From Naegleria gruberi (lineage: Eukaryota): a stretch of DNA of 64,000 bases. Positions 14,331 through 42,556 of this stretch are shown piece after piece. Position 1 is the first letter of the stretch. Each line of letters opens with the position of its first letter. The stretch is from assembly GCA_000004985.1 (NCBI GenBank), contig GG738865.1. One strand, given 5' to 3'. The translations under genes and the position numbers were made by a program. The notes under the pieces were generated by a model. That model saw nothing but the letters and a program-made list of their open reading frames with translations, ran no database searches and was not told where the DNA came from.

Positions 14331-15791
14331 ATGATAGAGCAACAAATGATTGAGTCGTTTAGTCAATACTTTCAGAATATAATGATCATACTGTTGGGAT
14401 GTTATATTGGATGGATTGTCTTTTCAAATGTGATTCGTAAATATATCTACTCAATGGTTGATAGTAAAGTGTACGAGATGGGAAAATCATTCACAGAACA
14501 TTTAATTAATCAAACGAGGGGTTTTGAGTGCAAAGTCTACTCGTGTAAAACTAAGGACGGTTGTAAATTACAACTCTTTAGAATTATTTATAAGGGAAAT
14601 GATGCTGATCATTCGAATAATGTTTCATTGAGTCCTCAATCAACCATTAGATATTGTCCATCGGCACAACAAGTTGAGGAATTGTTAAGAGAGAGTGAAC
14701 AACTTTCAAAGAAACCAGTTGTGGTGTTGCAACATGGATTGTTAGAGGCCATGACTGTCTTTGTGCTACATGAAGATTCCATCGCATTCCAATTGGCCAA
14801 GAAGGGTTTTGATGTTTGGTTGGTCAATAATAGAACCTCACTGTTTGGTCAACAACATCTGGTTTCCAGAATTCATGATGAAGTCGAATTTTGGAAATTC
14901 TCTATTGATGAAATTGCCAAATATGATATGCCAGCAATAATAGATTTTGTTAGAAACGCAACTTGCCAATCAAAGATTTGTTGGGTTGGAATGTCCCAAG
15001 GAGCTGGTCAACTCTTTGCTGCCCTCTCACAAACTGAGTATGCCCACTATAAGAATTATCTTTCTGCTATTGTTGGACTGTCGCCAGCATGTTTCTTGAA
15101 GAAGAATCCAGAATCTACCTTTCTTAGACTCTTAATTAAGACTCCCTCATTCATTTTCGGAAGGAGAGAATTCATGCTTATTATTCTTATTGGACAACTG
15201 TTATTACCTGCCTCATTCCTTGCCAAGGGAGGTGAATATGCTCTCAAACTATTGAATATTCAACAAAAACCACTCCCAAACCATCCCCTGAAAGGTGAAT
15301 GGTTTAAGAACATTCCACTGGGATGTACCTCTGTAAATAATGTGGTTCACTGGTTAAGGATGTTAAACATTGGAGGATGTTTGAGAAAATTCAATGGAAT
15401 TGAAAAGTATCCAATTGATGAAATGTTAGATAGATGGAGAGAGGTCTACCACTCCAATTTGAGTCATCAGCAACAAGATAAGAAGCAACAAGAATATGTG
15501 CCACCTCTCTTTGTCTTTTTGGGAGGAAAGGATAATGTAATTGACTATGAAGAGAGTATCAAACATTTTGGCTGTTGTGACTCTGTGTTGGTGACTGATG
15601 AAACAGGTGAACATCCACCCAAGAATATTTCAACATGTCCAGGAAGTTGTCCAGTGTCCAACAATGTTCGTTGCAAGATTCTATTCGATCCAGAGTATGG
15701 TCACACTGATTTCCTTTGGGCTGAACCAGATGCCAAACACCAAAGACATTATGATAAGGTTATTCAATTCTTGGAGGAACATGTTCAATAG
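14331..15791 (+). CDS. alpha/beta-hydrolase lipase (acid/gastric-lipase-like)
   Basis: 486 aa with an N-terminal signal-anchor helix. The VVVLQHGLLEAMTVFV block is typical of the Abhydro_lipase N-terminal region. Nucleophile elbow GMSQG (GxSxG). Conserved C-terminal His region. Confidence 0.75.
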   Translation: MIEQQMIESFSQYFQNIMIILLGCYIGWIVFSNVIRKYIYSMVDSKVYEMGKSFTEHLINQTRGFECKVYSCKTKDGCKLQLFRIIYKGNDADHSNNVSLSPQSTIRYCPSAQQVEELLRESEQLSKKPVVVLQHGLLEAMTVFVLHEDSIAFQLAKKGFDVWLVNNRTSLFGQQHLVSRIHDEVEFWKFSIDEIAKYDMPAIIDFVRNATCQSKICWVGMSQGAGQLFAALSQTEYAHYKNYLSAIVGLSPACFLKKNPESTFLRLLIKTPSFIFGRREFMLIILIGQLLLPASFLAKGGEYALKLLNIQQKPLPNHPLKGEWFKNIPLGCTSVNNVVHWLRMLNIGGCLRKFNGIEKYPIDEMLDRWREVYHSNLSHQQQDKKQQEYVPPLFVFLGGKDNVIDYEESIKHFGCCDSVLVTDETGEHPPKNISTCPGSCPVSNNVRCKILFDPEYGHTDFLWAEPDAKHQRHYDKVIQFLEEHVQ

Positions 15792-18432: not shown

Positions 18433-18813
18433 ACTAATTGATAAAATACTTAATGTAAATAGAATTGGTTAGTTTTCTTTAATTTAATATTTGTATTAAC
18501 ATTTCCTTCAGGAAAAAGTTAACGAATACTTTGAAAAGGGCCGATTTATTCCAAGAATTTTATTTGCCATTTTTAGAAATTGGAAAACCTTAAGTTGACC
18601 GTAATTTGAAAACTTTTGAAACATTGGAAATTCCATGTTTTATTATTGTAATATGCTCCTTAAATTCCTTGTTAAGGTCTTACTGTAATCCTCAAACATT
18701 CAAACAGTACGATTCACAATTCCCAACAAACATTCTCTTCATTGTCCAATGTTGAACGGCCTTGCGGTTTGCACACACTTTTCTTGAAGAAAAAAATTAA
18801 CAACAAACTCAAC

Positions 18814-21800
18814 ATGAGGAGCAACCTTAATTGGCTTAATTGCTTACTGTTAACAGCCTTTGTGTTAGCGCTCTTTTCCTTTCACACGAAGGGTACTGTG
18901 CTAGAGTATTGCGATACAATGACAAATATTCCACCTCTTTGCTCGAATCAACAAAATCTAGGACATGCTGTTGATATAGAGTTGCCAGGTGGATATAGTG
19001 AAGTAGGAATGAATGTTACAACACAATTGGTTGGCTTTATCAATGACCAAAATGAAGATTTGTATCACTTGGTGAATGCTCCTACTTTGGTTGATAAATA
19101 CATTTCAAAACTTAAGAGGGTAAGCAAGAATGGTGCAGAGATTTGGACATTAGACATTCAAAGTGATTGCAGCACAAGTGCATCAGTAGTTAGTCAAACT
19201 CTTTCCTTTGCTTCGGATGGTACTATTGTGTTATCTGGTTGGATTATTACAAAGGAAAGAGCATGTTTTAGGGGTACAAAACTATCCTCAAAAACCTCTC
19301 AAAACAATAGAAAAGTTCCATTCATTGCCTTCGTATCATCAACTGGCTATGTGATTTCTGTAATTTCCTTAGAAAATGACTTCCCTGATGCATCAATTTC
19401 ACATGTTGATTTAGACCATTCCGACTCGAACAAACTCTATCTTATCATCAGAATGGATTCAAGATTATTGATTGCATGTTACAATGACGGTAGATTAATG
19501 TGGAACAATGTAATATCCTCTTGTGCAGATCCAAGTAAATGTCAGGCTGCAGGTTTGAGTTATTCACCATTTGGGAAAATTTTGGTCACACTTTATGAAA
19601 GTGATGGAACTAATTTCCAATTCGCTGCTCAAGGTTTCAATTTTGTTTCACACAAATCTGGAATCTACATAGCGACATTTAGCTCAGATGATGGTTTGTT
19701 CTCTTCTATTGATATGGTGTTCCACAGTACCTCAGTTAACATGGGAGCACCAAAGACAGTTTTGGATCGTTTAGGAAAATTACACCTACTGATTGCATGT
19801 GAGGCTAATTGCTACATAAGCGGTTCCATTGCAAATCCAGGTGTCTTCTTGTTGAGATATTACAATGGAGCTGTTGAAAAATTAAACAGATTCATTTCCC
19901 TTATATTATCCAAAATTAAGCTTCAAAGCCTTGCATTAGACAGAGATCTATCTATCTATGCAATTATTAATGGATTGACATCATTTTCAATAATTGATGA
20001 CACCGATGGCAGAGTATCAAATTTTCTTGATATTGGAGTTCTTTGTAAATTCAGATACTCAGATGGAAAGATTTTATGGTTACGAAAAATAGCTGACGAT
20101 CCAACTCTGGATTACTACCACGTAAGTCCTTCCAGCATAATGGTTAATAAGAAGGCCACTGTTGATGAAATTATTCCAACCATGTTCACATATCTCAGAG
20201 ATGGCACAAGAAGAACAGCCTGGATTGAATCATACACTGCTCGTTACGATACAACTGAATCATCATCTGCTAGAATAGGAGGATCTGGAGGATCAACAAC
20301 ACACACAACAAGTGACAAAGTTACTGCAATTCTTTTTGGAACCACTTCAGATTATGTTAGGGATATTGGATTTGAATTCAAATCTGTACCTGCTTTCCAA
20401 GGCGGGTTAGGAATTAGATATGCCATTGACAGTGATGAATATTTCACCTCGATTGACTATTGTGTTGGTGGTAATTCATATACCACAGTAGAATATATCA
20501 AATTCAACACAAACAAGAAGTCTTTTTCAAATGGTAAATGTCGTAGTTCCCTTCAAACTGAAAGCGTTCCAAAAGGTAAAGAACTTGTTGGTTTCACAGT
20601 CAACATAGGTATATATCTGGATTCAATCAAGTTTTACTATCGTAGCCCATATATTTGCATGACTGGCACAGAAGGGGACAAGTGTGACACCAATGTATGC
20701 TATGGTATTTCTTCCAAGTCCGCACTGAAATGTAGTGGTAAGGGTAATTGCGTTGGGCCTAATACTTGCTCATGTTATTTTGGATATTTTGGGTCTAATT
20801 GTGAACAGAAAACTACATGTTTTGGTATTGACTTTGATTCAAAAACAGTTTGTTCTGGAAATGGAAATTGTTATGGGCCGAATACTTGTCGGTGTAATGG
20901 TAGATATACTGGAAACCAATGTCAATACGCAACATGTAATGGAATAATTCAATCGGATAGCAAGGTGTGTTCAGGTCATGGATCATGTATTAAGGAAGAT
21001 ACATGTTCCTGCCAAGAGGGATATTCTGGTCCGTCATGTAGCACATATTCGTGTTCAGGAATTTTAAATTCTGATTCGAAAGCTTGTTCAACACATGGAG
21101 TTTGTTCAAGTTTAAATAATTGCACATGCTTAGTTGGTTATTTTGGTAGTACTTGTAACGAATTCGAGTGTGGGGGTATCAATGCCAAGTCTAATCTTAC
21201 CTGCACAGGAAGAGGAATTTGTTCTTCTTCAAATAATTGTAAATGTTTAGCCCCTAATTCTTATGGAGACAATTGTGAATCATGTAAGGAAGGGTATTAT
21301 GGAAGCAAATGTGAAAAATGGAATTGTAATGGTATTGAGAACACGTCGCCTGATGTATGTGGTGGTAGAGGACAATGTGTCGCTCCAAATCAATGTAAAT
21401 GTACTTCAACTGCCACTGGTTCATTTTGTGAACAATGTGTTACAGGTTATTTTGGACTTAAGTGCGGTAATTGGACATGTAATGGTATTGAAAACACAGC
21501 CACAAATGTTTGTAACCACAGAGGAAGTTGTATTGCATATGATAATTGTCAATGTTCTTCAAGATCTTATGGTTCCAGTTGTGAATCATGTGTTGGATTG
21601 TTTACTGGTGCTCTCTGTTCTGAATGTTCTGGACACCTCGAAGGAGATGAAGAATGTTTAAATTATGCTGTCACCGATCCAGAATACTATGCTTTTACTG
21701 ATGATAATAGGTTAGAATTTCTTCAATTTATAGTAATGTCAACAGGTATTGTGAATTCTACCGATTATGCTTGTAGCAAGTTGTTTACTAATCTAGAGAA

Positions 21801-24800
21801 TGAAATTGGTATAGGTTTGGAATGTACTGTTAGGAATGGCACAGTTTCTCCTTCTAATACTGTCAATAGAGCTTATTTAATTACTGTTAAAACTTTTCAA
21901 GGTACAATGAGTCCAAGTAAACCAATACATTTCAACATCTTTTGGGCAAATCCACAAAAAAAACCATCCTATACCACCCTTAACATTAGTGTAAAAGAGT
22001 TTTATACAAAGAATTCGATTGGTTTAGATTTGTATGCTGAGCAATATAGGGTGTAAACAGATGTTATGACACACAATTACGTTTACATTACTCGCAACCA
22101 GAACACCGATACACTTTCACATCCATTAAATGGAACATTACAAATTCAAATAATCTCCAAACTGTTCCTAAAATTGTGCAAGCTGTAGAAACTGCCAAAA
22201 ACAGTCTTGACTTGACTATTCCATTCGTACCAGAAATGCTCACTAATGAAACTCTAATTGTAACAGTGACTTTTGTATCTGCTTTTGGTCAACAAGCCGT
22301 AAAATCATTCCCACTTAAATTAAGTAAACCTTATCCTAAACCAAGTTCTACCATTCCTACTAGAACAGTTACCTTCCTTAGTTCAGAAGATGAGACTATT
22401 CCTCTTCGAGAATTCTATGAAAATCCTGAATGTTTAGATCAAGGAATCGTTCCATCCTTTTCCCTGTATCGCGGTTACTATGATGATTATTTTACTATGG
22501 ATCGTACTAGTTCACATTCGGTTATTCTTACCTCAGATTTAATTATTGTTAAATCTTTAACGTTTACAAATGAGGAAATACTGCCCATATGGTTTGGCAA
22601 TTCAGCAAGAATCCGGTTAGATGTTCGTTACCTTCCACCTATTCCAAAAATAGTCGAATCGATTGTTTATTATAACTTTATACAGCCAAGCATTACCATT
22701 GCTTGTAGGAGTCCTTATGGAGATTCATATTTTTACAGCAGCATCAGATATTCGTTGTTAGAGGATTCTTCCAAAATAGCGAATGGATACGCTTCCTCTG
22801 CAACTGTTCCAGTTAGAGTACTGAGTGCTGCTAATCCAGACTCTGCAGTATCGAGTGCTCTTTTCGAATTGACTTGTAGTGGGCCAAATAGGCTTGGAGA
22901 TACTTCCATTTCAAAATATGTGACATTTATTAAAGAACAACCTGCAAGTAGTACACCTCACCAGGATATTGTAAAATTCTTGCAGTTTCATTGAAGACTC
23001 CAAATGGAAGAAGTACAATACCTTATTCAGAAAATGATCAAACCTATAATCTTGAAGTGGTATCTTCAAGTAATGATTGCAAGTTAAGAGTTATCTTATC
23101 CAATCCAATCAGCTATAATTCTGTTGAATTATTATCAACTACACTTTCCAATACCATCAGCACTGTACCAGTAGTATTCAAACAGAGCACTCTCTCAAAG
23201 TTTACAATGGCAAAGAGTTCTACAACAATGTCTTTATATGCCGCTAATGATCTCTCTGTACAAGGTCAAAGTATTGAACTTCAAGGCAAATTTTTTACAA
23301 TAATTGACATGTGTTCAATTTCTCCATCCACCATTGAAATTGGAATAACCAAAGCAACACTTTCATGTACATCTGACCTTGTTACCACATCGACAAAGAT
23401 TGAGCTCTATCATGATGGACTCTTGGTTGGTAAATCTGCCAGTTTCCCAATTGACTTTGTAACATCAAGGTCAGGACAATCTTTTAAGGTTGTAATTTAT
23501 GACACACTTACTGGTGGTAAAGCTAGTGAAGATATACTCTTGTCAAAAGCCATTACGTTCAGTACTAAATCATTACTTACAAGTAGTTTCGTATCAAAAA
23601 TTGCAAGTCAAATGGCAATCATTTCACAATCGAATAGTGCCAGTTTTAAAGACATTTCCAGTAATAATAATTATATTGTTTCAATGATTAATAATATTGG
23701 AATAGCTACAGAGATTGTGCAAAAGGAAATCGCTTCATTGACTCCAAAAGCTTTGGATATGTCAATTACGGCAATTTCGAAAGACATGAAAGAGTCAAGT
23801 CCATCTCTAGGCTCGTTCTCAACCATGGTCAACCAGATAAAGGACTTGTCCAATCCTGAATATTTAACTGATTCAAATGTTGAGAAAACTACTCAAATTG
23901 TAAACGAATTTGTTTCATATACTCAAAGATTGACAAACTGGGATGATGGGATTTCTGCTTCGCTTTCTAATATTGTAACAAACATTGCTCCAAAGATATC
24001 TGAAACCACTACAATGTCCATGATTTCTAAAATTGCGTTTTCTACTATTTCCAAAAGTTCACAATTCACATTCACAACCACAAACTTTTTCCCAGATAAG
24101 AAACCTTCCAATTTGATTATTGTGAATGCAGTAAAGTCCAGTTACGTCTCCATGAACTCACTTTCGATTACATCCGAATCCAAAGTCCCACTAGTCTCAT
24201 TCCAATTGTCCAAACACAAGACAACAGCTCAAGCCAATGAAGAAATCATAGTTTCACACTCAGTTTTCAAATATCCATCATCAAAGCGATCCATTACAAC
24301 ACCTAAAAGAGATTTCATTTCCCAATTGAGTATTTCTTCAAAAAACATTTTGGAAGGAACTGCTTCATTCAATATTCCTCTCCCATCGTATGCTTCACCA
24401 ATTAGTCCTCTAATCAAACAAACTTTCAGATGTATTACTGTATACGACATGAAGGATTTCCAAGTTGAAACGTATTGTAAATACGCCAGCAATTCCAAAC
24501 AATATTTATCTGAATTTCAATCTGATTCAACAACTGTTGTAACATGTTCATGCGATTTGAATTATTTATCAAAGCAATCTCAATTTTCAATGATTGGTGT
24601 AACAGCTGAGTATTTGGAAGATGATTCTGCCTATAGAGCAGACCAAGATGCAAAGGTAGCAGCTGGTGTATCTGTTGCACTCATATTCGTTATTCTTTTT
24701 ATTGTTGGAATAGTTCTATTGGGTGTTGGAATTTCAGTCTTTTTGTATTTTAGAAAGAAGAAACAAATGCCACCTGCCCAATTCCCTGCCAATTCACAAC

Positions 24801-25009
24801 CATCGATTCAGTACACTACACAACCCTCAAGTAGCACCATCAATACCTCTACTCCTGATTTATTGGTTGCCTATTCTGTAAATGCTGATTTTGAATTGGG
24901 AACTGTAAATGCTGGTCAGCATTGGTCAGTTCCAAATCAAATCCATTTAGGTGCTATGGATGGTATCGAAAATGTGACAGCACAAAATATTCAACCAACT
25001 TCAATTTAG
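18814..25009 (+). CDS. large type-I membrane glycoprotein with tandem EGF-like Cys-rich repeats (tenascin-like C-x-G-x-G-x-C...C-x-C repeats), Ser/Thr-rich stalk, one C-terminal TM helix and a short cytoplasmic tail; multi-exon, ~2000 aa
   Basis: The track shows three abutting ORFs in frames 1, 0 and 2 (18742..22056, 22176..22994, 22991..25009). Only the first has a signal peptide (ATG 18814, MRSNLNWLNCLLLTAFVLALFSF). Only the last has a TM (VAAGVSVALIFVILFIVGIVLLGVGISVFLYF) plus tail. The last two begin at GTG/TTG rather than ATG. Junction 2 is explained by a 38-nt intron 22948..22985 (GTAGTA...TTGCAG). Junction 1 has two candidate introns: 22032..22204 (173 nt, GTATGC...AACAG) or 22022..22101 (80 nt, GTTTAG...ACCAG). 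It may instead be a real frameshift. Confidence 0.55.
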
Positions 25010-25065: not shown

Positions 25066-27198
25066 TTAATGTAAATCTAAACTTTTAGCCATTGAAATTA
25101 TTTGATCCAAATCATTTTCGAAATCCTTCACAAGTTCTTGAGGATTGGCAGTTAAGGTATCAGCACAAACACCAAGAACAAGCTTTCCATTATGGCTCGA
25201 CACAGCAAAAGATAATCCAACAGAAGCAGGGGAAGGTGCAAACACAACTAAATTGGATACCTTGACATTCTCCACTGTTAATTGAGTTGAGGATCCAACA
25301 ATATTTGTGAAAACTGCAGAAACCCAATTGGAAACAAACTTGTAAATTGTAGAAACTGTGCTCTTTTGTAAAATATTAACTAGTCTACAAGATTGATATG
25401 TAAAAAATGGTTCTGGAAGTCTCTTGCTCTTATCCATAACCTTCTTGATTTGTAGGAGTCTAGACTCGGGATTTCTAGAGAGATTCTTCAAATTAAGCGG
25501 CACAAGCATAAATCCAAACTTGTTGGATAAGTTGTTAAACTCTTCTTCCTCAAGTCTAATATTTACAGGAACAGATAAGGTAACCTTCATATTGCTTTCA
25601 TTATTGGATCTTCTCTCAGTAAATCTCAATAAGGCTCCAGAAAGGGAATTCAAAACAATATCATTCACTGTAGAGTTGTTACAGATCTTCTTAGCCACCA
25701 GTTTGACATCTGCAATATCAAAAGCCCTTGTCCACGAAACTTGCTTTTCTGTTGAAACTTTTGTTTTGAAAAGACTCTTATCACCTCCTCGAATAATCAT
25801 AGAAATCCACTTGAGTGCAACCATAAGTAAGCCCCATAACAGCCACATAAATGCTATCATTCTAATGATATAGCCAATAACAGGAACGTGTTCCAATGAA
25901 CGAATAGTCTTGGATATGAGTTTCCCCTTTCTTTCATGAAGTTCTTCCTTGAAATGCTCTTCTCCCTGGTCACAGAATTGAGAAAAGAACATTACTAAAG
26001 ATGATCCATCTCCAATAGCATGATGAATTCTAAATAATAACAGATATCCCATGGCAGGACAATTATCAATCACAATACACTCCCACAATGGCTTGGAAAA
26101 ATCAAAGGGTTCACAAACCAATTTACCTAGCAGCTCTCTAACAAGCTCGTGTTCTTCTGTTTCAGAATATTCGCGATTGCCACTCTTTAGTACTCTCATG
26201 TATCTAATATGTTGTTCAATGTCAATAGATCCTTGATCACAAAAAGTATTGTAATCATTGCTAACAGTAGACCTGAATCTTGCATATTGTTGCACAACCC
26301 TCTTATCCAATCGACTTCTCAAATCTTCATGTGAAATAGGACTCTCCAATGTTACAAAGGCACAACAAATGTTGGAATTTGTTGGTTCTTGGGTGATTAA
26401 TGTCATTTTGGTTACATGTGACAAATCTTTGAAAGACGTCTTTCTAATTTCAGTGTTAATACTCAGCTTTTCCAAAACCCTTTTTGCTACTGCATTTCTT
26501 TCTTCAATATATTTGGTTTCCTCCTTTCTTTGTTTGATTGGTTCCTTGAATTCTACTTGGGATGGTGATTCTTGATGATGATTAACAAGGGTGGCAGTTA
26601 CTACAGCTGTACTAACAGAATCCATCTCAATTGAAGAAGAAATTAATAGATTTTCTTTTTCAGGATTTGTTTCCTCTGCAAGAGTTGCCTCTTCTGTGCT
26701 ATTATTGGTTATTTCTTGTGTGGTAGTAATTACTAATTCTTCTTTGATCACATTTTCTTCAATTGGTTTTTCATTCAAGTTTGAGCTTTCTTCCTTGTTG
26801 GGGTTTTGTTCAAAATTGGATTGTTCTGAAATAGGTTCTTGAGTAATTGTGGTCTGATTATCGATCATAGAATGCTCTTCATCATTAGTTATTTTACTTT
26901 CCTCTCCTCCATTGATCACAATTTCAATCGATTGAGCAGATTCGACAATGGTTTCTTCATTTCTTGATTGACTTGGTTCTTCTTCCTTCTTGTGATTATT
27001 TCCATTCATTGCAATAGTAGTAGAAGAATTTTCTGCAACATCCTCGTGATGGTGATGATGATGAGTGGCACTATCAATTTCTTGCATTAAATTCATTCCA
27101 GAAGGCGACAAGAATTCATCCAAACTCAAAGTCTGACTCTTTCTCTTACTTGCTGAGGAAGGAGTTGTTTGATTCTTCTTTTTCTTTTGTTTGGTCAT
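25066..27198 (-). CDS. wax-ester synthase / acyl-CoA:diacylglycerol acyltransferase (WS/DGAT, WSD1-like) with a long low-complexity N-terminal extension
   Basis: 710 aa. The C-terminal ~380 aa carries the WS/DGAT catalytic motif HHxxxDG (FRIHHAIGDGSSLVMFF) and a condensation-domain-like fold with an internal TM-like helix. The N-terminal ~330 aa is Ser/Thr/Glu/Asn-rich and contains a His6 run. ATG at 27198. Confidence 0.75.
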   Translation of the reverse strand: MTKQKKKKNQTTPSSASKRKSQTLSLDEFLSPSGMNLMQEIDSATHHHHHHEDVAENSSTTIAMNGNNHKKEEEPSQSRNEETIVESAQSIEIVINGGEESKITNDEEHSMIDNQTTITQEPISEQSNFEQNPNKEESSNLNEKPIEENVIKEELVITTTQEITNNSTEEATLAEETNPEKENLLISSSIEMDSVSTAVVTATLVNHHQESPSQVEFKEPIKQRKEETKYIEERNAVAKRVLEKLSINTEIRKTSFKDLSHVTKMTLITQEPTNSNICCAFVTLESPISHEDLRSRLDKRVVQQYARFRSTVSNDYNTFCDQGSIDIEQHIRYMRVLKSGNREYSETEEHELVRELLGKLVCEPFDFSKPLWECIVIDNCPAMGYLLLFRIHHAIGDGSSLVMFFSQFCDQGEEHFKEELHERKGKLISKTIRSLEHVPVIGYIIRMIAFMWLLWGLLMVALKWISMIIRGGDKSLFKTKVSTEKQVSWTRAFDIADVKLVAKKICNNSTVNDIVLNSLSGALLRFTERRSNNESNMKVTLSVPVNIRLEEEEFNNLSNKFGFMLVPLNLKNLSRNPESRLLQIKKVMDKSKRLPEPFFTYQSCRLVNILQKSTVSTIYKFVSNWVSAVFTNIVGSSTQLTVENVKVSNLVVFAPSPASVGLSFAVSSHNGKLVLGVCADTLTANPQELVKDFENDLDQIISMAKSLDLH

Positions 27199-27692
27199 TT
27201 TCTAGGTGTTTTAAGAATTTTCCTTGTTGTGTGTTTAGATTGTTGCTCTTGTTTTTACGACACTTCCGATTAGAAACGATCGAAAATTTGCCTTCTTAAA
27301 CTCTTACTTTGTGGTAAGCTTGAATTGGGACTTTTTTTTCTGTTCTAAAATCCGAGTTGATGGTTGAAATTTTCCCTACCAAAGTTTGCTCTTTCCAGTT
27401 ATTAGTTGGTTATTAATCTATTGATATCAATCGATTATTTTCTACGATATATCCACATTTATAATACCACTAGTAGTACAGAATATGGAGAATTTCCTGT
27501 GTATTTAATATTTGGAGACTAATATACTGCTGATTAAATTACTTTAAATTCCCAATAAATATTATTTCAAATGGTGTTGTATTTTGCCAACATTTCACTT
27601 CATGACTACGAATTCATTGAACATGCTGTGCAATCAATCAAATAATATTTTCTAAATCATGAATATTTTTAATTTTTTAAATTATTAAAAAA
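27199..27692. promoter_or_regulatory. divergent intergenic region between the WS/DGAT gene (minus) and the U1-70K gene (plus); presumed bidirectional promoter
   Basis: About 490 bp and AT-rich. The run aaaaaaATG sits at 27693. Confidence 0.3.
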
Positions 27693-28601
27693 ATGTCGAG
27701 CAAAAAGTACAAGAACGTGCCGAGCATATTACCACCACAGATTCAGGCCTTGTTTACACCAGGCCCTCCAGTCTCTTTTCTTCCTCCACTCGATGCTAAA
27801 AGAAGAAAGAAAACAAAACATAGAGATCTGAACGGAATTTCAGAATTTGTAGATAAATTTGAACAGGAACAAGTTGAATATGATGCCGAAGGTCAAGCTA
27901 TTCGGACGAAAAAGTATTCAATGCCTGAATCGAGAAGAAAAAGAAAGGAAAGTAGACAAAAAGATAAAGCAATTAAAGTGGAAAATGTTGTAAGAAAAGG
28001 ATTACAAGACTGGGATCCAAATAATGATACAAAGGCAACAACAGAACCATTCAATACATTATTTATTTCAAAGATGAATTATGAAACAACGGAGGATACT
28101 CTTAGGAATGCATTTGGTAAATTTGGACCGATCAAGACTGTTCGTGTTGTACGAGATGCATCAACAAACAAATCGAGAGGCTATGCCTTTGTAGAATTTG
28201 AAAAACATGAAGACATGAAAGAAGCATACAAACTAGGTGATGGTATGGAAATTGATCAGTGGCGTGTACTTGTAGATGTTGAAAGAGGTCGTACTGTAAA
28301 GGATTGGAAACCAAGAAGATTAGGAGGAGGACTGGGTAATTCTCGTGATCCTCCACCTCCAATTGTTGAAGAGAAGGTTGAAGAATTTAGACCTCCACAA
28401 AGTGGAGGAGGAGGTGGTGGTTTCCGTAAATCCTTCGGTGGAGGAGACAGAAGAGGAGGTGGAAGATTTGGTGGAGGTGGTGATAGAAGAGGAGGAGACA
28501 GAAGAGGTGGTGATCGAGGTGATAGAGACCGAGGAGGTTACAGAGATAGTTATGATGACAGAAGATCTTACAAGAGAGGACGTGATTACGATGATAGGTA
28601 A
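27693..28601 (+). CDS. SNRNP70: U1 small nuclear ribonucleoprotein 70 kDa (U1-70K)
   Basis: 302 aa. A Pro-rich N-terminal U1-70K motif (LPPQIQALFTPGPPVSFLPP) is followed by an RRM (LFISKMNYETTEDTLRNAFGKFGPIKTVRVVRD...RGYAFVEFEKHEDM) and an RG/RD/GGG-rich tail. The overlapping + ORF 28345..28605 is the other frame of the GA-rich tail and is spurious. Confidence 0.9.
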   Translation: MSSKKYKNVPSILPPQIQALFTPGPPVSFLPPLDAKRRKKTKHRDLNGISEFVDKFEQEQVEYDAEGQAIRTKKYSMPESRRKRKESRQKDKAIKVENVVRKGLQDWDPNNDTKATTEPFNTLFISKMNYETTEDTLRNAFGKFGPIKTVRVVRDASTNKSRGYAFVEFEKHEDMKEAYKLGDGMEIDQWRVLVDVERGRTVKDWKPRRLGGGLGNSRDPPPPIVEEKVEEFRPPQSGGGGGGFRKSFGGGDRRGGGRFGGGGDRRGGDRRGGDRGDRDRGGYRDSYDDRRSYKRGRDYDDR

Positions 28602-28772: not shown

Positions 28773-30878
28773 TTACTCTAAGACTGCCAAAACAGCTTCA
28801 CCTTGAACGAGGTCACCAATAGCATATGGTAAACTCTTGATAACACCATCCTTAGTGGCCAAAATCTTGTGTTCCATCTTCATGGCTTCCATTGCAAGGA
28901 TAGTATCACCCTTTGAAACCTTATCTCCTTCCTTAACCATGACAGCTGTAATTTTACCTGGCATTGGACTCTTCAATGATCCCATAGCTGGACCACCCTT
29001 TTGTTCGAAAGCAGCCAAAACTGGAACAATTTCATATCTTTGACCATCTCTTGTGAAGAGGTAAATTGTCTTTTGGTCGTGACTAAAAGCAAGGGTTGAG
29101 TGGAATTTTCTGCCATCAACAGAAGCAACAATTTCCTTAGTAGTAGCATCATAAGAACCACTAACAACATGGCTATTCTTACCAATCTTCATGACAAATT
29201 TGCTAGTTGTTTGTGGATCCCACACATGTTCAACATTGACAGAAACAATTTGATCTTTGTGGTGTGGATGGTGGAATTCAAAGTTTTCATCGTGATTGTG
29301 ATTGAATCTGAGACCTTTGAGTTGATCGAATGGATCGCTTGAACGCTTAGTTTGTCTATCATTCTTGACAATCAATGAGAGAGTGGACAACAAGAAGACA
29401 GAATCATCAATCTTCTTTTCAGGGAAGAGTTCACTATAATACTTTTGAATAAAGTGAGTTTCCAATTCAGTGACATTCTTAAATCTTTCATTGGTGGCCA
29501 ATCTGATAAGGAATTCAATATTTGTATTCAAACCAGAAATGTGATATCTGTGGAGACAAGAAACCAATTTACGGAGAGCCAATTCTCTGTTTTCGCCCCA
29601 AACAACAAGTTTAGCAATCATTGGATCATAGTAAATGGAAACTTCATCACCTTGTCTGACACCAGTTTCAACTCTGACTTCTCCTGGAATTTCTTCTGGA
29701 GGACTCAAATAACGCAATGTACCAGTACCTGGCAAGAAGTTATTTTCTGGATTTTCAGCATAGATACGAGCTTCGAAAGCATGACCAGTTCTCTTCAATT
29801 CGTTTTGGAGAAGTGGTAATCTATTTCCAGAAGCAACTTGAAGTTGCCATTCAACCAAATCTTGACCAGTAATCATTTCAGTAACTGGATGTTCAACTTG
29901 AAGTCTAGTATTCATTTCCATAAAGTAATAACTATTATCAGCATTGTCCATAATAAATTCGACAGTACCAGCACCAACATATCCAACAGCTCTGGCAGCA
30001 TCTACAGCACTTTCACCCATAGCTCTTCTGACTTCATCTGCCAAACCTGGTGCAGGAGCTTCTTCAATAATCTTTTGATGTCTTCTTTGAACTGAACAAT
30101 CTCTTTCAAACAAGTAAACACAATTTCCGTGAGTATCAGCAAAAACTTGAATTTCAATGTGACGTGGTGTTTGAATATATTTTTCAATTAAAACTCTGTC
30201 ATCACCAAATGAAGCTTTAGCTTCACGTTTAGCAGAAGAGAGAGCTTCTTTGAATTCCTTTTCACTGTGGGCAAGCTTCATACCTTTACCACCACCTCCC
30301 AAGACAGCTTTAATCAAAATTGGGAAACCAATTTTCTTTGCTTCTTCCAATAATTTGTCTTCACCTTGTTCATCTCCGTGATAACCTGGCACAACAGGTA
30401 CTTTGGCATGTTCCATAATCTTTTTACTTTCACTCTTTGATCCCATTGAAATAATAGCTCCTTCTGGTGGTCCAATAAAAACAACACCATTCTTGGCACA
30501 GAGACTGGCAAATTTAGCATTTTCTGACAAGAAACCATAACCAGGGTGAATAGCTTGAGCTCCACATTGTTTGGCAATTTCAAGAATTTTATCACCACAC
30601 AAGTATGATTTGCTTGATTCTGGTGGACCTAACAAGTAGGCTTCATCAGCCATAGCTACGTGCATAGAATTGGCATCGGCTTCACTATAAACAGCAACAG
30701 TTTTAATACCAAGCTTTCTTGCTGTTTTCATAACTCTACAGGCAATTTCACCTCTGTTGGCAATCAAGATTTTATCAAAGAGTGGTTTCTTGTTTTGTTC
30801 ATTGCAAAGTCTGCTGCTGATGATGATTGTGATGTGAGTTGTTGATTCATAATTGTATGAAAATATTTCTTTCCGCAT
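28773..30878 (-). CDS. MCCC1: 3-methylcrotonyl-CoA carboxylase alpha subunit (biotin carboxylase + biotin-carboxyl-carrier domain), mitochondrial
   Basis: 701 aa. ATP-grasp biotin carboxylase core (FDKILIANRGEIACR, GGGGKGM) and a C-terminal biotinyl domain with the EAMKME motif. Sequence upstream at 30764..31036 (frame-shifted) encodes a presequence-like peptide MLLRNSLKQSKSIRKNVGAALST... and may be a 5' exon. Confidence 0.9.
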   Translation of the reverse strand: MRKEIFSYNYESTTHITIIISSRLCNEQNKKPLFDKILIANRGEIACRVMKTARKLGIKTVAVYSEADANSMHVAMADEAYLLGPPESSKSYLCGDKILEIAKQCGAQAIHPGYGFLSENAKFASLCAKNGVVFIGPPEGAIISMGSKSESKKIMEHAKVPVVPGYHGDEQGEDKLLEEAKKIGFPILIKAVLGGGGKGMKLAHSEKEFKEALSSAKREAKASFGDDRVLIEKYIQTPRHIEIQVFADTHGNCVYLFERDCSVQRRHQKIIEEAPAPGLADEVRRAMGESAVDAARAVGYVGAGTVEFIMDNADNSYYFMEMNTRLQVEHPVTEMITGQDLVEWQLQVASGNRLPLLQNELKRTGHAFEARIYAENPENNFLPGTGTLRYLSPPEEIPGEVRVETGVRQGDEVSIYYDPMIAKLVVWGENRELALRKLVSCLHRYHISGLNTNIEFLIRLATNERFKNVTELETHFIQKYYSELFPEKKIDDSVFLLSTLSLIVKNDRQTKRSSDPFDQLKGLRFNHNHDENFEFHHPHHKDQIVSVNVEHVWDPQTTSKFVMKIGKNSHVVSGSYDATTKEIVASVDGRKFHSTLAFSHDQKTIYLFTRDGQRYEIVPVLAAFEQKGGPAMGSLKSPMPGKITAVMVKEGDKVSKGDTILAMEAMKMEHKILATKDGVIKSLPYAIGDLVQGEAVLAVLE

Positions 30879-35812: not shown

Positions 35813-37122
35813 ATGAATAGTCGGGGGATAAAATCGAGCGGACTAGTAGGGAATGGTTCTACTTCTGCTCTTGTATTATTAATTATCAATGTGATGATGC
35901 TGATAGTAGCGATGAATAATTTCCTAATAATGACGGAAGCAAAATTTGAATTGATTGGACATAGAGGAGCTCCAAATTTGAGACCTGAACATACGTATGA
36001 ATCCTATTTATTGGCTTTTCAACAAGATGCTGATTATATTGAATTTGATGTAATGCCATCTAAAGATGGAGTCCTTATGGTGACTCATAGTTTTGAATTA
36101 ACTGGTAGGTACCTGATTGAAAATCTTTGAGTGTGCTAACTGTTTCTTCTATAGAAATTAGTAATGTTGCCTCTGTGAGCAAATTTTCGGATAGAAAGAA
36201 AACTAAAGTTGTCGATAAGAAATCATATTCTGGATGGTTTATTGAGGATTTTACTGCTTCTGAATTACAGGAATTGAGATTGAGAGAAAGATATCCACAA
36301 GCTAGAACTACCAAGTTTGATGACATCTTTGTCATGCCAACTCTTGAAACAGCACTTGACTATATAATTGCTATTACTCCAAATAATTCTTCTAAAATCA
36401 AGCTCTATATCGAAACAAAGCATCCAACATATTTTGCATCTGCTTTGAATGTCGATGTTAACCAATTGCTTGTTAATGTTTTGGAGAAGTACCATTATCT
36501 TGAATATACCATGTTCCAATCATTTGAAATTTCAAGTATGACTAGTATTCGTACAATTTTGTCCAACAAGAATATTCAACCATTGGGATATGTGATGCTT
36601 TTAGTGGCTAATGGTTCTCAAATTGATAATGGAAGAAATTTTGATGAGTACCTGACTGAGGAAGGTATTGATACAGCAAAGAGTGCTGGTATCACTGGTT
36701 TCGGACCAGCTTGGAAGATGGTTACTAAACCATGGGTTGAATCAGTTCACAAGAGAAATTTAATCATTCACCCATATACTTACAGACCTGAGGAATACTT
36801 TTTGAAACAAACCCCATATACCACCTTCTCTGATTTTATTAAGAGTGCTTTGGAACTTGGTGTTGATGGAGTTTTCACTGAGGACATTGATCAAACCAGA
36901 GCCATTGTTCTTGCCTATGAATCCAATTCAGTTGTGACTGTCTTGCTAATCGTTGCCTTTGTATTCGTTGGAGTTTTATTCATTGTCATTGCTGCCTCTG
37001 TTTTATCAGCTTACCTTTGCAAGAGAAAGACCAATCCATCATCATCAGCCACCCAAAACAGAGAAGAACGTGCAGGTCTTGCCCAACAATCCAATTCCTA
37101 TTCATATAATCAAGATGAATAA
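35813..37122 (+). CDS. glycerophosphodiester phosphodiesterase (GDPD family), membrane-anchored; 2 exons
   Basis: Exons are 35813..36104 and 36155..37122. The intron 36105..36154 (50 nt, GTAGGT...CTAAC...TATAG) joins track ORFs 35813..36130 and 36127..37122. N-terminal signal anchor. GDPD catalytic block ELIGHRGAPNLRPEHTYESYLLAFQQDADYIEFDV. C-terminal TM VVTVLLIVAFVFVGVLFIVIAASVL plus a short tail. 419 aa. Confidence 0.85.
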
Positions 37123-40762: not shown

Positions 40763-42556
40763 TTACATTCTAAAGACACCGAATTGAGTTGGACTTTCAA
40801 TCTTTCCATTTTCACAAGCACTCAAACTCAAACCAAGAATTCTTCTTGTGTCACGTGGATCAATGACACCATCATCCCACAATCTGGCAGATGAGAAGTA
40901 TGGGTGACCTTCATGTTCATACTTGGCTCTAATACCATTCTTGAATTCTTCCATTTCTTGTTCTGGAACTTCCTTACCTAATCTCTTCATACCTTCAACC
41001 TTAACTTGGGAAAGGACGCCAGCAGCTTGTTCACCACCCATGACAGAGATTCTAGAATTTGGCCACATGTACAAGAATCTTGGATTGTAAGCTCTACCAC
41101 ACATACCATAGTTACCAGCACCGAAACTACCACCGAGGAGGACAGTAATCTTTGGAACCTTAGCACAAGCAACAGCCATGACCATCTTGGCACCATCCTT
41201 AGCAATACCATTGGTTTCGTATTGTTTACCAACCATGAAACCAGTAATATTTTGAAGGAACAAGAGTGGAATACCTCTTTGAGAACACAATTCAACAAAG
41301 TGAGCTCCCTTTTGAGCAGATGATGAGAACAAGATACCATTGTTAGCAATAATACCAACTGGCTTACCATAAATCTTGGCAAAACCTGTCACCAATGTAG
41401 TTCCGTATAATTGTTTGAATTCATCAAATCTACTTCCATCGACAATACGAGCAATAATATCTCTGACATCGAATGGTTTTCTACCATCACGTGGAATGAT
41501 ACCTAAAATTTCATCTGGATTATATTTTGGTTCTTCAAAAGATGTTGGAACTTCATTTCTATTACTATTATTCTTTCCCAAAAAGTCAGTCTTTTTCATA
41601 TTGAGATTTGAAATAATTCTTCTTGTCAAATAAATAGCTTCAGTTTCATCATTGGCATAGTAATCAGTGACACCACTTTGTCTACAGTGAACATCAGCAC
41701 CACCCAATTCTTCATCAGTAACTTCTTCACCAGTAGCAGCCTTAACTAATGGTGGACCACCCAAATAAATAGTACCATTACCCTTTACAATAATACTTTC
41801 ATCAGCCATTGCAGGAACATAGGCACCACCTGCAGTACATTTACCCATAACTACAGCAATTTGTGGAATACCTTGAGCACTCATATTGGCTTGATTGTAG
41901 AAAATTCTACCAAAGTGAAGTTTGTCAGGGAAAACATCAGCTTGATGTTCCAAGTTGGCACCACCACTGTCAGCAATGTAAATACATGGCAAGTTATTTT
42001 GTTCAGCAATTTCTTGGGCTCTCAAATGTTTCTTTACAGTGATTGGATAATATGTACCTCCTTTAACAGTTGCATCGTTAGCAACAATTACACACAATTG
42101 ATCGTGAATTTTACCAATACCTGTAATAATACCACCAGCAGGTACTTCATCCTTTCCGTACAATTCATAACCAGCCAATTGACTGAATTCGAGGAAAGGA
42201 GATCCATCATCCAACATTCTATTAATACGATCTCTAACCAAGAGCTTGTTTCTTGAAGTGTGCATCTTTCTATACTTTTCTCCACCTCCCAACTTGATCT
42301 TTTCAACCAAATTCTTCAAATCATTAACTCCTTGAATATTGTGAGTATAATTTGCCTTGTATTCGGCATCATGATGAATATTATTTTCAAGAATATTATG
42401 AGTATTTTCAGCACTTGTAATACTATGATAAAATCTATTATTATTTGATGAAGATCCAGCAGCTAATTGTTTGGCCAAAGAACCACCAACCAAACCAGAA
42501 CGTTGTTGTTGGTTGAGAAGAATGCTAGAAATTTTCTTGGTTGAATTTTTAAGCAT
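40763..42556 (-). CDS. MCCC2: 3-methylcrotonyl-CoA carboxylase beta subunit (carboxyltransferase), mitochondrial
   Basis: 597 aa with an N-terminal presequence-like region. Carboxyltransferase N and C domains ([62 protein letters not shown]). Confidence 0.9.

What the first reader, a model, noticed from the sequence alone, without database searches (positions are those of the whole stretch)
25066..27198. Bacterial/plant-type WS/DGAT acyltransferase fused to a 330-aa low-complexity, His6-containing N-terminal extension
The HHAIGDG catalytic motif and condensation-like fold identify a wax-ester-synthase/DGAT-type enzyme. The family is best known from actinobacteria, Acinetobacter and plants. 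A long acidic Ser/Thr/Asn-rich extension with a histidine run is atypical. It suggests added regulation or localisation, or an evolutionarily recent acquisition adapted to the host. This is one of several lipid-metabolism genes in the window.
Basis: partly seen in the sequence, partly recalled or inferred. Interest (0 to 1): 0.5.

Follow-up and report, generated by a model that had tools for sequence, protein, structure and literature searches.

The report
Naegleria WS/DGAT acyltransferase with disordered tail
This is an ordinary, uncharacterised neutral-lipid (wax ester/triacylglycerol) synthase gene of the amoeba Naegleria gruberi, with a fast-evolving floppy N-terminal tail and a greasy membrane-anchor helix of the kind already described in plant and Euglena versions of the enzyme.

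Summary
The ORF is real: 25066..27198 on the minus strand, 710 aa. It is 100% identical to Naegleria gruberi NAEGRDRAFT_57890, so the window is eukaryotic.

It belongs to the WS/DGAT family:
- Both Pfam domains pass their thresholds.
- The HHAIGDG, PLW and ND motifs are present.
- The AlphaFold model best matches the two solved WS/DGAT structures, 7NXG and 6CHJ.

The N-terminal extension is real but 258 aa long, not 330. It is Glu/Ser/Thr/Asn-rich with net charge -21, is predicted disordered, and contains no tandem repeats. Identity to other Naegleria species is 13-17% in the extension against 55-58% in the enzyme domain. Only a polybasic tip and the junction with the domain are conserved. The His run (residues 46-51) is only loosely conserved.

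Orthologues occur in N. lovaniensis, N. fowleri, Willaertia, Acrasis and Percolomonas. They fall in a clade whose named members are all eukaryotes (ichthyosporeans, oomycetes), with 93% NJ bootstrap. A recent acquisition is therefore not supported.

It is typical of this eukaryotic clade. Predicted transmembrane domains are already reported for plant and Euglena WSDs.

Verdict: a new, uncharacterised member of a known kind, of low interest.

The parts
25066..27198 (-). Complete single-exon CDS of the WS/DGAT-family protein (710 aa plus stop). It equals N. gruberi NAEGRDRAFT_57890.
   Evidence: ORF list. 100% identity over 100% of the length to P0001. In-frame TAG 6 nt upstream of the ATG.
26425..27198 (-). 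N-terminal extension, residues 1-258. It is acidic, Glu/Ser/Thr/Asn-rich and predicted disordered.
   Evidence: Composition and net charge -21. pLDDT <50 for residues 1-218. 13-17% identity to the N. lovaniensis and N. fowleri orthologues over residues 35-221, against 55-58% in the domain. 0 in-frame stops against 10-25 in the other frames. No Pfam hit.
27097..27198 (-). Conserved N-terminal tip, residues 1-34: polybasic 'MTKQKKKK...' followed by 'SLSLDEFL'.
   Evidence: 35% identity to both other Naegleria orthologues, the best-conserved part of the extension. A similar 'M[TA]K(K/R)K' start occurs in Acrasis P0025 and the unnamed P0024.
27046..27063 (-). His6 run, residues 46-51 (cat cat cat cac cat cac).
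   Evidence: Read directly from the sequence. N. lovaniensis and N. fowleri have shorter His runs at this alignment position and a second run near residue 20.
26455..26535 (-). Predicted charged helix, residues 222-248, leading into the basic junction 'IRKTSFKDLSH'.
   Evidence: AlphaFold helix H222-248, pLDDT about 66-82. 24-27% identity to Naegleria orthologues. The junction motif IR(K/R)xS...DLSH is conserved in Naegleria.
25654..26424 (-). N-terminal catalytic subdomain, residues 259-515 (PF03007 region).
   Evidence: PF03007 matches residues 293-515, E 2.7e-13. TIGR02946 matches residues 269-700. The AlphaFold model is confident here.
26083..26091 (-). PLW motif, residues 370-372.
   Evidence: Invariant in the heterolobosean-clade alignment A3 and conserved in at least 90% of the 25-sequence alignment A4. 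It aligns to 'PLW' of AtfA (7nxg) and Ma2 (6chj).
26005..26025 (-). Catalytic HHxxxDG motif, HHAIGDG, residues 392-398.
   Evidence: Read directly from the sequence. It aligns to HHAMVDG of 7nxg and HHSLVDG of 6chj. H392, H393, D397 and G398 are conserved in at least 90% of A4.
25792..25887 (-). Hydrophobic, TM-like helix, residues 438-469 ('VPVIGYIIRMIAFMWLLWGLLMVALKWISMII'). It lies in the linker between the two subdomains and has an invariant central Gly456.
   Evidence: Kyte-Doolittle 19-residue maximum of 2.22. AlphaFold helix 439-470. 17 of 20 members of the eukaryote-containing clade exceed 1.8 at this position, against a median of 1.15 in 139 other hits.
25660..25665 (-). ND motif, residues N512-D513 in 'TVNDIVLNS'.
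   Evidence: Invariant in all 25 sequences of A4. It aligns to 'TINDVVL' of 7nxg.
25099..25527 (-). WS/DGAT C-terminal domain (PF06974), residues 558-700.
   Evidence: E 1.5e-30, 106.6 bits, covering model positions 2-144 of 145.
27199..27692 (.). 494-bp intergenic region shared with the divergently oriented U1-70K gene (27693..28601 +). It is the presumed bidirectional promoter and 5'UTR region.
   Evidence: ORF positions. U1snRNP70_N plus RRM_1 hits. Promoter function is inferred, not tested.

Best explanation
The gene encodes the single WS/DGAT-family O-acyltransferase found for Naegleria gruberi in these searches.

Shown:
- The C-terminal 452 residues form the two-subdomain, condensation-like WS/DGAT fold. 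The catalytic HHxxxDG motif and the family's PLW and ND motifs are intact.
- The gene is conserved across Heterolobosea.
- Residues 1-218 are predicted disordered and evolve fast.

Inferred from the family's established chemistry: His393 acts as a general base. It deprotonates the hydroxyl of a lipid acceptor (diacylglycerol, a fatty alcohol or another lipid alcohol), which then attacks the thioester of an acyl-CoA to give a neutral ester (triacylglycerol and/or wax ester).

Inferred from hydropathy and from published plant and Euglena WSDs: the 32-residue hydrophobic helix in the inter-subdomain linker anchors the enzyme to the ER or lipid-droplet membrane. It most likely acts as a monotopic or hairpin anchor, because both subdomains must stay on the same (cytosolic) side to form the active site.

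The N-terminal 258 residues are a lineage-specific spacer or regulatory tail, not a second enzymatic domain. Only its polybasic tip and a basic 'RKTS'/'RRNS' kinase-like site at the junction are conserved. These two elements are candidate membrane-binding or regulatory motifs; this is speculative.
For: - Identity and coordinates.
- Family assignment: PF06974 at 1.5e-30 and PF03007 at 2.7e-13, both above the gathering cut-offs. TIGR02946 at 3e-49. PDB sequence hits to 7nxg and 6chj with aligned catalytic motifs.
- Structure: AlphaFold domain pLDDT is mostly 80-98. The top Foldseek hits are AbWSD1 7nxg (E 1.5e-19, TM-score 0.74 on the target) and MaWSD 6chj, ahead of NRPS condensation domains.
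- Motif conservation.
- Vertical history: orthologues in N. lovaniensis, N. fowleri, Willaertia, Acrasis and Percolomonas. The eukaryote-containing clade has 93% NJ bootstrap.
- Hydrophobic helix. Predicted TMDs and ER localisation are reported for land-plant WSDs (PMC12062176), and 1-2 TMDs are predicted for EgWSD1-4 (PMC5647427).
- Disordered, fast-evolving extension.
- Physiological plausibility: N. fowleri taken from mouse brain stores TAG-like lipid droplets (PMC11964265). N. gruberi encodes a FAR domain (FARAT) that could supply fatty alcohols (PMC13012113).
Against: - No enzymatic, expression or localisation data exist for this protein or any heterolobosean orthologue. No paper cites the locus tags or a Naegleria WS/DGAT.
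- TIGR02946 scores 168 bits, below its curated cut-off of 310, so the sequence is a divergent member.
- The acceptor substrate (DAG, fatty alcohol, sterol or prenol) cannot be read from the sequence.
- The hydrophobic segment contains Arg446 and Lys463, leaving an uncharged core of only 16 residues. AlphaFold draws it as one straight helix. A bilayer-spanning, hairpin or interfacial topology is therefore undecided.
- The phylogeny is NJ only, and many clade members are unnamed metagenomic sequences.
- Use of the ATG at 27198 is supported only by conservation, not by transcript or peptide data.
Confidence: 0.8

Rival explanations
1. The N-terminal extension is an annotation artefact. Translation would really start at a downstream Met (M35, M38, M64, M109 or M204), so the mature protein carries little or no tail.
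For: No transcript or peptide evidence was available. The protein is seen on only one contig, the genome itself. The Willaertia model has only about 110 residues before the domain. Residues 35-221 are barely conserved.
Against: The frame is open for all 258 codons, against 10-25 stops in every other frame, and its codon-position GC matches the domain. The tip containing Met1 is the best-conserved part of the extension: 35% identity, with 'M[TA]K.K.K...L[ST]L[DY]EF' shared by all three Naegleria species, and a polybasic 'M[TA]KKK' start in Acrasis. All three Naegleria orthologues keep tails of 258-291 aa. M265 cannot be the start, because conserved domain residues 251-264 lie upstream of it.
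Confidence: 0.08
2. The gene is a recent horizontal acquisition from bacteria (actinobacterial or gammaproteobacterial WS/DGAT) that later picked up a host-style tail.
For: The family is predominantly bacterial. Outside the eukaryote-containing clade, the named best hits are Anaerolineae, Cyclonatronum, Xanthomonadaceae and Mycobacterium at 22-31% identity. The eukaryotic distribution is patchy.
Against: Orthologues occur in six heterolobosean genera or species, with identity falling roughly as taxonomic distance grows: 58, 56, 48, 34 and 33%. The clade includes Sphaeroforma, Chromosphaera, Globisporangium and Aphanomyces and has 93% NJ bootstrap. No bacterial hit exceeds about 31% identity. 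Local GC equals that of the surrounding genome. An ancient transfer into eukaryotes is not excluded, but a recent one is not supported.
Confidence: 0.05
3. The protein has the WS/DGAT fold but makes neither storage TAG nor wax. It would instead acylate another acceptor (sterol, prenol/phytol-like alcohol or monoacylglycerol), or act on membrane or cyst-wall lipids, or be catalytically silent.
For: Family members differ widely in acceptor. KnWSD1 makes wax and phytyl esters but no TAG (PMC12062176). TrWSD4/5 are bifunctional (PMC5513132). The sequence is only about 15% identical to the solved enzymes in structural alignment, and TIGR02946 falls below its cut-off. No wax esters are reported for Naegleria in the papers found.
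Against: All catalytic and structural motifs are intact and under purifying selection, with 55-58% identity among Naegleria species, so a silent protein is unlikely. TAG-like droplets exist in N. fowleri (PMC11964265). This rival differs from the best explanation only in the acceptor substrate.
Confidence: 0.25
4. The N-terminal region is a functional metal-binding or targeting domain (His6 plus acidic residues), not a disordered spacer.
For: His runs occur in all three Naegleria tails. The region is strongly acidic. It is the only His run of 5 or more residues among the 30 long ORFs of the window.
Against: The position and length of the His runs are not conserved, and they are absent from Willaertia, Acrasis and Percolomonas. 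pLDDT is below 50 throughout residues 1-218. There is no Pfam match. Identity is 13-17%.
Confidence: 0.07

Closest known systems
Bacterial WS/DGAT: Acinetobacter baylyi AtfA/AbWSD1 (PDB 7NXG) and Marinobacter MaWSD/Ma2 (PDB 6CHJ)
   Same: It shares the two Pfam domains (PF03007 plus PF06974) and the HHxxxDG, PLW and ND motifs. These are the best structural matches of the AlphaFold model.
   Different: Sequence identity is only about 15% in the structural alignment. The bacterial enzymes have no N-terminal tail. Their inter-subdomain linker is not strongly hydrophobic: the median Kyte-Doolittle maximum is 1.15 in the 139 hits outside the clade, against 2.22 here.
Land-plant and streptophyte WSDs (AtWSD1, KnWSD1)
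   Same: These are eukaryotic WS/DGAT enzymes with predicted transmembrane domains and ER localisation (PMC12062176). They have the same domain order.
   Different: No plant sequence appeared among the named relatives I could identify, but most of the 150 hits are unnamed. I could not fetch plant sequences, so the position of the plant TMDs relative to the helix found here and the plant-versus-bacterial affinity remain untested. Plant WSDs are not described with a 258-aa acidic tail.
Euglena gracilis EgWSD1-6 (wax-ester fermentation enzymes; Discoba, the same supergroup as Naegleria)
   Same: They are WS/DGAT-family enzymes. Four of the six have 1-2 predicted TMDs and a presumed ER location, and the HHxxxDG motif is conserved (PMC5647427).
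   Different: EgWSDs were reported to group near bacterial WSDs in their own clade. Naegleria is not known to carry out wax-ester fermentation.
Thraustochytrium roseum TrWSD4/TrWSD5 (characterised protist WS/DGATs)
   Same: They are protist WS/DGATs with lineage-specific additions: an N-terminal coiled coil in TrWSD4 and a predicted TM in TrWSD5. Both are bifunctional in vitro (PMC5513132).
   Different: In TrWSD4/5 the first His of the motif is replaced by Ser or Asp, whereas Naegleria keeps HH. The TrWSD5 TM is C-terminal (residues 472-494), not in the inter-subdomain linker.
NRPS condensation / CAT-like acyltransferase superfamily
   Same: It shares the V-shaped two-lobe fold and the HHxxxDG catalytic motif. 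There are many Foldseek hits at E of about 1e-15 to 1e-18.
   Different: PF00668 scores 22.2 bits, below its 30.6 cut-off. There are no carrier-protein or adenylation partners. The WS/DGAT-specific C-terminal domain PF06974 is present.

Membership tests
[quoted passage not shown] | N-terminal catalytic domain PF03007 above Pfam's gathering score | tested here: met
   50.7 bits against a cut-off of 23.6, E 2.7e-13, residues 293-515.
[quoted passage not shown] | C-terminal domain PF06974 (formerly DUF1298) above the gathering score | tested here: met
   106.6 bits against a cut-off of 20.7, E 1.5e-30, residues 558-700, covering model positions 2-144 of 145.
[quoted passage not shown] | Intact HHxxxDG active-site motif | tested here: met
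   HHAIGDG at residues 392-398. It aligns to the motif of 7nxg and 6chj. All 20 sequences of the eukaryote-containing clade keep HH...DG.
[quoted passage not shown] | Additional conserved family motifs (PLW upstream of the active site; ND in the second half) | tested here: met
   P370-L371-W372 and N512-D513 are invariant or conserved in at least 90% of alignments A3 and A4.
[quoted passage not shown] | Two-lobe fold closest to solved WS/DGAT structures | tested here: met
   The top Foldseek PDB hits are 7nxg (E 1.5e-19, TM-score 0.74 on the target) and 6chj, ahead of NRPS C/Cy domains. The model's domain pLDDT is mostly above 80.
[quoted passage not shown] | NCBIfam TIGR02946 subfamily trusted cut-off (a model trained on prokaryotes) | tested here: not met
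   168.1 bits against a cut-off of 309.95, although E is 3e-49 over model positions 11-449 of 453. The protein is a divergent eukaryotic member. This does not contradict the Pfam-level membership.
[quoted passage not shown] | Acyl-CoA-dependent wax ester and/or TAG synthesis activity | not testable with these tools
   This needs an enzyme assay or complementation. No literature exists on any heterolobosean member.
Membrane-anchored eukaryotic WSD (plant / Euglena type) | Predicted transmembrane or hydrophobic anchor segment | tested here: met
   Residues 438-469 have a Kyte-Doolittle 19-residue maximum of 2.22 and form AlphaFold helix 439-470. The feature is shared by 17 of 20 clade members. 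No dedicated TM predictor was available.
Membrane-anchored eukaryotic WSD (plant / Euglena type) | ER (or lipid-droplet) localisation | not testable with these tools
   This is known for AtWSD1 and KnWSD1 (PMC12062176). No data exist for Naegleria.
NRPS condensation domain (PF00668) | PF00668 above the gathering score, in a context with carrier or adenylation domains | tested here: not met
   22.2 bits against a cut-off of 30.6, covering only residues 344-410 around the HHxxxDG motif. No such partner domains occur in the protein.

The most novel reading that the evidence does not exclude
Heterolobosean amoebae, including the brain pathogen N. fowleri, may use this divergent WS/DGAT as a principal route for storing ingested lipid as neutral-lipid droplets. 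The family is absent from humans to my knowledge. The enzyme would be held on the ER or droplet surface by a monotopic hairpin inserted in the inter-subdomain linker. Its recruitment or activity would be switched by the disordered tail, through the polybasic tip and a conserved basophilic-kinase site at the junction. It would then be a lineage-specific regulated lipid-storage enzyme and a possible selective drug target.
Probability: 0.2. Interest if true: 0.45.

Novelty: new member of a known kind. Interest (0 to 1): 0.2.

Why it matters
The result matters modestly.

- Naegleria gruberi preferentially burns lipids. N. fowleri recovered from brain tissue fills with TAG-like droplets (PMC11964265). 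Its neutral-lipid synthases are nevertheless uncharacterised.
- A single-copy WS/DGAT conserved across Heterolobosea is an obvious candidate to test, and the pathogen has an orthologue, FDP41_010596.
- From general knowledge, human wax and TAG synthases belong to the DGAT1/DGAT2 families, so the family has no human homologue.
- The data also extend to Heterolobosea, ichthyosporeans and oomycetes the published observation that eukaryotic WSDs carry a hydrophobic anchor which most bacterial ones lack.

Nothing here challenges current understanding. The N-terminal tail is the kind of fast-evolving disordered extension common in protist proteins.

Tried and rejected
- A full-length word-indexed search found only 3 hits. 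Repeating it with the domain alone and with the exhaustive representative search solved this.
- A profile search with an 11-sequence clade alignment again hit the candidate cap. It added only P0171 and P0172, so it did not supply the named relatives I wanted.
- A direct phylogenetic test against plant WSD1, Euglena EgWSDs and Thraustochytrium TrWSDs could not be run. Those sequences could not be fetched, and I did not use sequences recalled from memory.
- The first NJ bootstrap produced NaN distances for saturated pairs. I repeated it with a cap and use only the second run.
- The order of branches inside the heterolobosean-like group is unresolved (7-35% bootstrap), so I make no claim about it.
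- I looked for tandem repeats as the origin of the tail and found none.
- I looked for any Pfam domain in the tail and found none at E of 1 or below.
- I looked for a PTS1 or signal peptide by eye. The C-terminus is '-SLDLH' and the N-terminus is polybasic with no hydrophobic core, so neither is apparent.
- I considered an operon-like lipid gene cluster and rejected it. The genome is eukaryotic, and unrelated genes lie between the lipid-related ones.
- Literature searches for a Naegleria wax ester synthase, Naegleria wax esters or the locus tags found nothing specific.
Full report
**Observation.** The region 25066..27198 holds one uninterrupted minus-strand ORF of 710 codons that starts with ATG. 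An in-frame TAG lies six bases upstream of the ATG, so the reading frame cannot extend further without an intron. The motif HHAIGDG is at residues 392-398 (nt 26005-26025). A run of six His codons is at residues 46-51 (nt 27046-27063). The protein is 100% identical over its full length to the Naegleria gruberi hypothetical protein NAEGRDRAFT_57890. The window is therefore a piece of a eukaryotic (heterolobosean) nuclear genome. Its GC content is 31-38% throughout, with no local anomaly at the gene.

**Family assignment.**
- Pfam gives WS_DGAT_C (PF06974, 106.6 bits, E 1.5e-30, residues 558-700). It also gives WS_DGAT_cat (PF03007, 50.7 bits, E 2.7e-13, residues 293-515). Both are far above their gathering scores.
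- The NRPS Condensation model reaches only 22.2 bits, below its cut-off of 30.6.
- NCBIfam TIGR02946 aligns nearly end to end: residues 269-700 match model positions 11-449 of 453, E 3e-49. The score of 168 bits is below the curated 310 bits, as expected for a divergent eukaryotic member.
- A sequence search of the PDB finds only the two solved WS/DGATs, 7NXG (E 6.4e-9) and 6CHJ (E 2.5e-5). The PLW, HHxxxDG and ND regions are aligned in these hits.
- An AlphaFold2 model built from a 25-sequence alignment is confident for residues 256-710. Its best Foldseek matches in the PDB are 7NXG (E 1.5e-19, TM-score 0.74 on the target) and 6CHJ, followed by NRPS condensation and cyclisation domains.
- H392, H393, D397, G398, P370-L371-W372 and N512-D513 are invariant or conserved in at least 90% of the alignments.

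**The N-terminal extension.** Its boundary is residue 258, not 330.
- Orthologue conservation begins at residues 251-259 ('I..LSHVTKMTLITQEPTN'). I read this as the counterpart of the very N-terminus of bacterial WS/DGATs.
- TIGR02946 position 11 maps to residue 269.
- The model becomes structured at residue 256.

The 258 residues are 16% Glu, 12% Ser, 10% Thr and 9% Asn, with net charge -21. Residues 1-218 have pLDDT below 50, and they are followed by a predicted helix at 222-248. The region is only mildly low in complexity (3.1-3.7 bits per 40-residue window). It contains no tandem DNA repeats and matches no Pfam family.

It is genuinely coding. It has no stop in 258 codons, against 10-25 stops in each of the other five frames. 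Its GC1 > GC2 > GC3 pattern matches that of the enzyme domain. No splice is needed, so the 'mis-joined exon' refutation does not apply.

**Conservation of the extension.** All three Naegleria orthologues carry a tail: 258 aa in N. gruberi, 275 aa in N. lovaniensis and 291 aa in N. fowleri. It is shorter in Willaertia (110), Acrasis (82) and Percolomonas (116). Identity between N. gruberi and the other Naegleria species is 13-17% over residues 35-221, against 55-58% in the enzyme domain. Two islands are conserved:
- The tip (35% identity), with 'M[TA]K.K.K...L[ST]L[DY]EF'. A polybasic start is also seen in Acrasis (MTKKKHG) and in an unnamed relative, P0024.
- The junction, where Naegleria keeps 'IR(K/R)xS' just before 'DLSH'.

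His runs occur in all three Naegleria tails, but with different lengths and partly different positions. They are absent from the more distant orthologues. The tail therefore behaves like a rapidly evolving disordered region with a few short linear motifs. The His6 run is not a conserved functional element.

**Evolutionary placement.** The exhaustive HMMER search found 3612 relatives at E of 0.001 or below. The best non-Naegleria hits are:
- an unnamed JGI protein (P0024, 37% identity);
- Acrasis kona (P0025, 34%);
- Percolomonas sp. (P0026, 33%);
- several unnamed metagenomic or Logan proteins.

In an NJ tree of 159 sequences, these fall in a 20-sequence clade. Its other named members are all eukaryotes: Sphaeroforma arctica, Chromosphaera perkinsii, Globisporangium ultimum and Aphanomyces invadans. 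The clade receives 93% bootstrap in a 90-sequence resampling, and Naegleria plus Willaertia receives 100%. Branching inside the clade is unresolved.

Outside the clade, one named hit is a eukaryote (Syssomonas, below) and three eukaryotic-transcriptome or unnamed hits could not be placed. The remaining named hits are bacterial: Anaerolineae, Cyclonatronum, Xanthomonadaceae and Mycobacterium, at 22-31% identity. The gene is therefore old in Heterolobosea and belongs to a protist-wide WS/DGAT lineage. A recent acquisition is not supported. An ancient bacterial origin of the eukaryotic lineage remains possible. I could not include plant, Euglena or thraustochytrid reference sequences, so the 'plant versus bacterial' question is unanswered.

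Residues 438-469 ('VPVIGYIIRMIAFMWLLWGLLMVALKWISMII') form the only strongly hydrophobic segment of the protein (Kyte-Doolittle 19-residue maximum 2.22). It lies between the HHxxxDG helix and the C-terminal domain and is modelled as a single 32-residue helix.
- At the same alignment position, 17 of the 20 clade members exceed 1.8.
- The 139 other hits have a median of 1.15.
- Of the five strongest exceptions outside the clade, the only one that could be named is a eukaryote, Syssomonas.
- Gly456 in the middle of the segment is invariant in the clade.

Published work already reports two relevant things. [quoted passage not shown] Four of six Euglena WSDs have one or two predicted TMDs (PMC5647427). 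The helix is therefore best read as the membrane anchor of a eukaryotic WSD.

Both lobes of the fold must meet to form the active site. I therefore infer a monotopic hairpin or interfacial anchor rather than a true bilayer span. This is an inference. Arg446 and Lys463 leave an uncharged core of only 16 residues.

**Mechanism.** By homology, His393 (with His392) deprotonates the hydroxyl of a lipid acceptor, which attacks an acyl-CoA thioester to form a neutral ester. Which acceptor is used cannot be told from the sequence. Both TAG and wax esters are physiologically conceivable. N. fowleri isolated from mouse brain contains TAG-like lipid droplets (PMC11964265). N. gruberi encodes a fatty acyl-CoA reductase domain within FARAT (PMC13012113). 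No report of wax esters in Naegleria was found.

**Context.** The gene is convergent with an S/T-rich membrane-protein ORF, with 56 bp between the two stop codons. It is divergent from a U1-70K gene, with 494 bp between the two start codons. The window also holds:
- an acid-lipase-like hydrolase;
- a GDPD-family gene;
- the biotin-carboxylase and carboxyltransferase subunits of an acyl-CoA carboxylase.

These sit among dynein, kinesin, PheRS, EF-G, RasGEF and PPR genes. This is not a functional cluster.

**Novelty and verdict.** The protein is already in public databases as a hypothetical protein with these Pfam domains, and its orthologues are auto-named 'Diacylglycerol O-acyltransferase'. 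No paper in the searchable library mentions it. It is an uncharacterised new member of a known enzyme family. Its two 'extras', a disordered N-terminal tail and a hydrophobic anchor, are respectively commonplace and already described for eukaryotic WSDs. The finding is real and correctly classified but ordinary. Interest is low (0.2). Its main value is as a candidate neutral-lipid synthase in Naegleria, including the pathogen N. fowleri.

Noticed in passing
window 28773-30878 (-) and 40763-42556 (-): The first ORF has biotin carboxylase plus biotinyl-carrier domains (701 aa). The second is a carboxyltransferase (PF01039, E 6e-157, 597 aa). They lie about 10 kb apart on the same strand. They look like the alpha and beta subunits of a methylcrotonyl- or propionyl-CoA carboxylase, which is unusually close for a eukaryote.
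   Followed up: partly
window 14331-15791 (+): A 486-aa ORF matches Abhydro_lipase (PF04083) and the alpha/beta-hydrolase fold. It is an acid/TAG-lipase-like enzyme, a possible catabolic counterpart of the WS/DGAT, but it lies 9 kb away with unrelated genes in between.
   Followed up: partly
window 36127-37122 (+): A glycerophosphodiester phosphodiesterase (GDPD, PF03009) ORF, another lipid-related gene in the window.
   Followed up: no
window 18742-25009 (+): Three consecutive long ORFs: 18742-22056 with EGF-like and jacalin domains, then 22176-22994, then 22991-25009. The last is Ser/Thr-rich, has no Pfam hit and ends in a clear TM segment plus a short tail. Together they may be exons or frames of one large mucin-like surface protein. 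Its stop lies only 56 bp from the WS/DGAT stop.
   Followed up: no
window 27693-28601 (+): A U1 snRNP 70K homologue (U1snRNP70_N plus RRM) with a Gly/Arg/Asp-rich C-terminal tail. It is transcribed divergently from the WS/DGAT gene across a 494-bp spacer.
   Followed up: partly
P0020 (771 aa, Logan assemblies, sequence): This relative fuses a complete WS/DGAT (PF03007 plus PF06974) to regions with precomputed hits to PF01553 (acyltransferase) and PF03982 (DAGAT). Two or three different acyltransferase types would sit in one polypeptide. The source organism is unknown.
   Followed up: no
P0167 (1043 aa): In this relative the WS/DGAT domain occupies only residues 629-1036. The 600-residue N-terminal part is unidentified.
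   Followed up: no
window residues 406-417 of the protein (nt 25948-25983): The motif 'SQFCDQGEEHFK' directly after the catalytic helix is identical in all three Naegleria species and Willaertia. Its 'CDQ' core recurs in Acrasis, Percolomonas, P0029 and P0030. No function for it is known to me.
   Followed up: no
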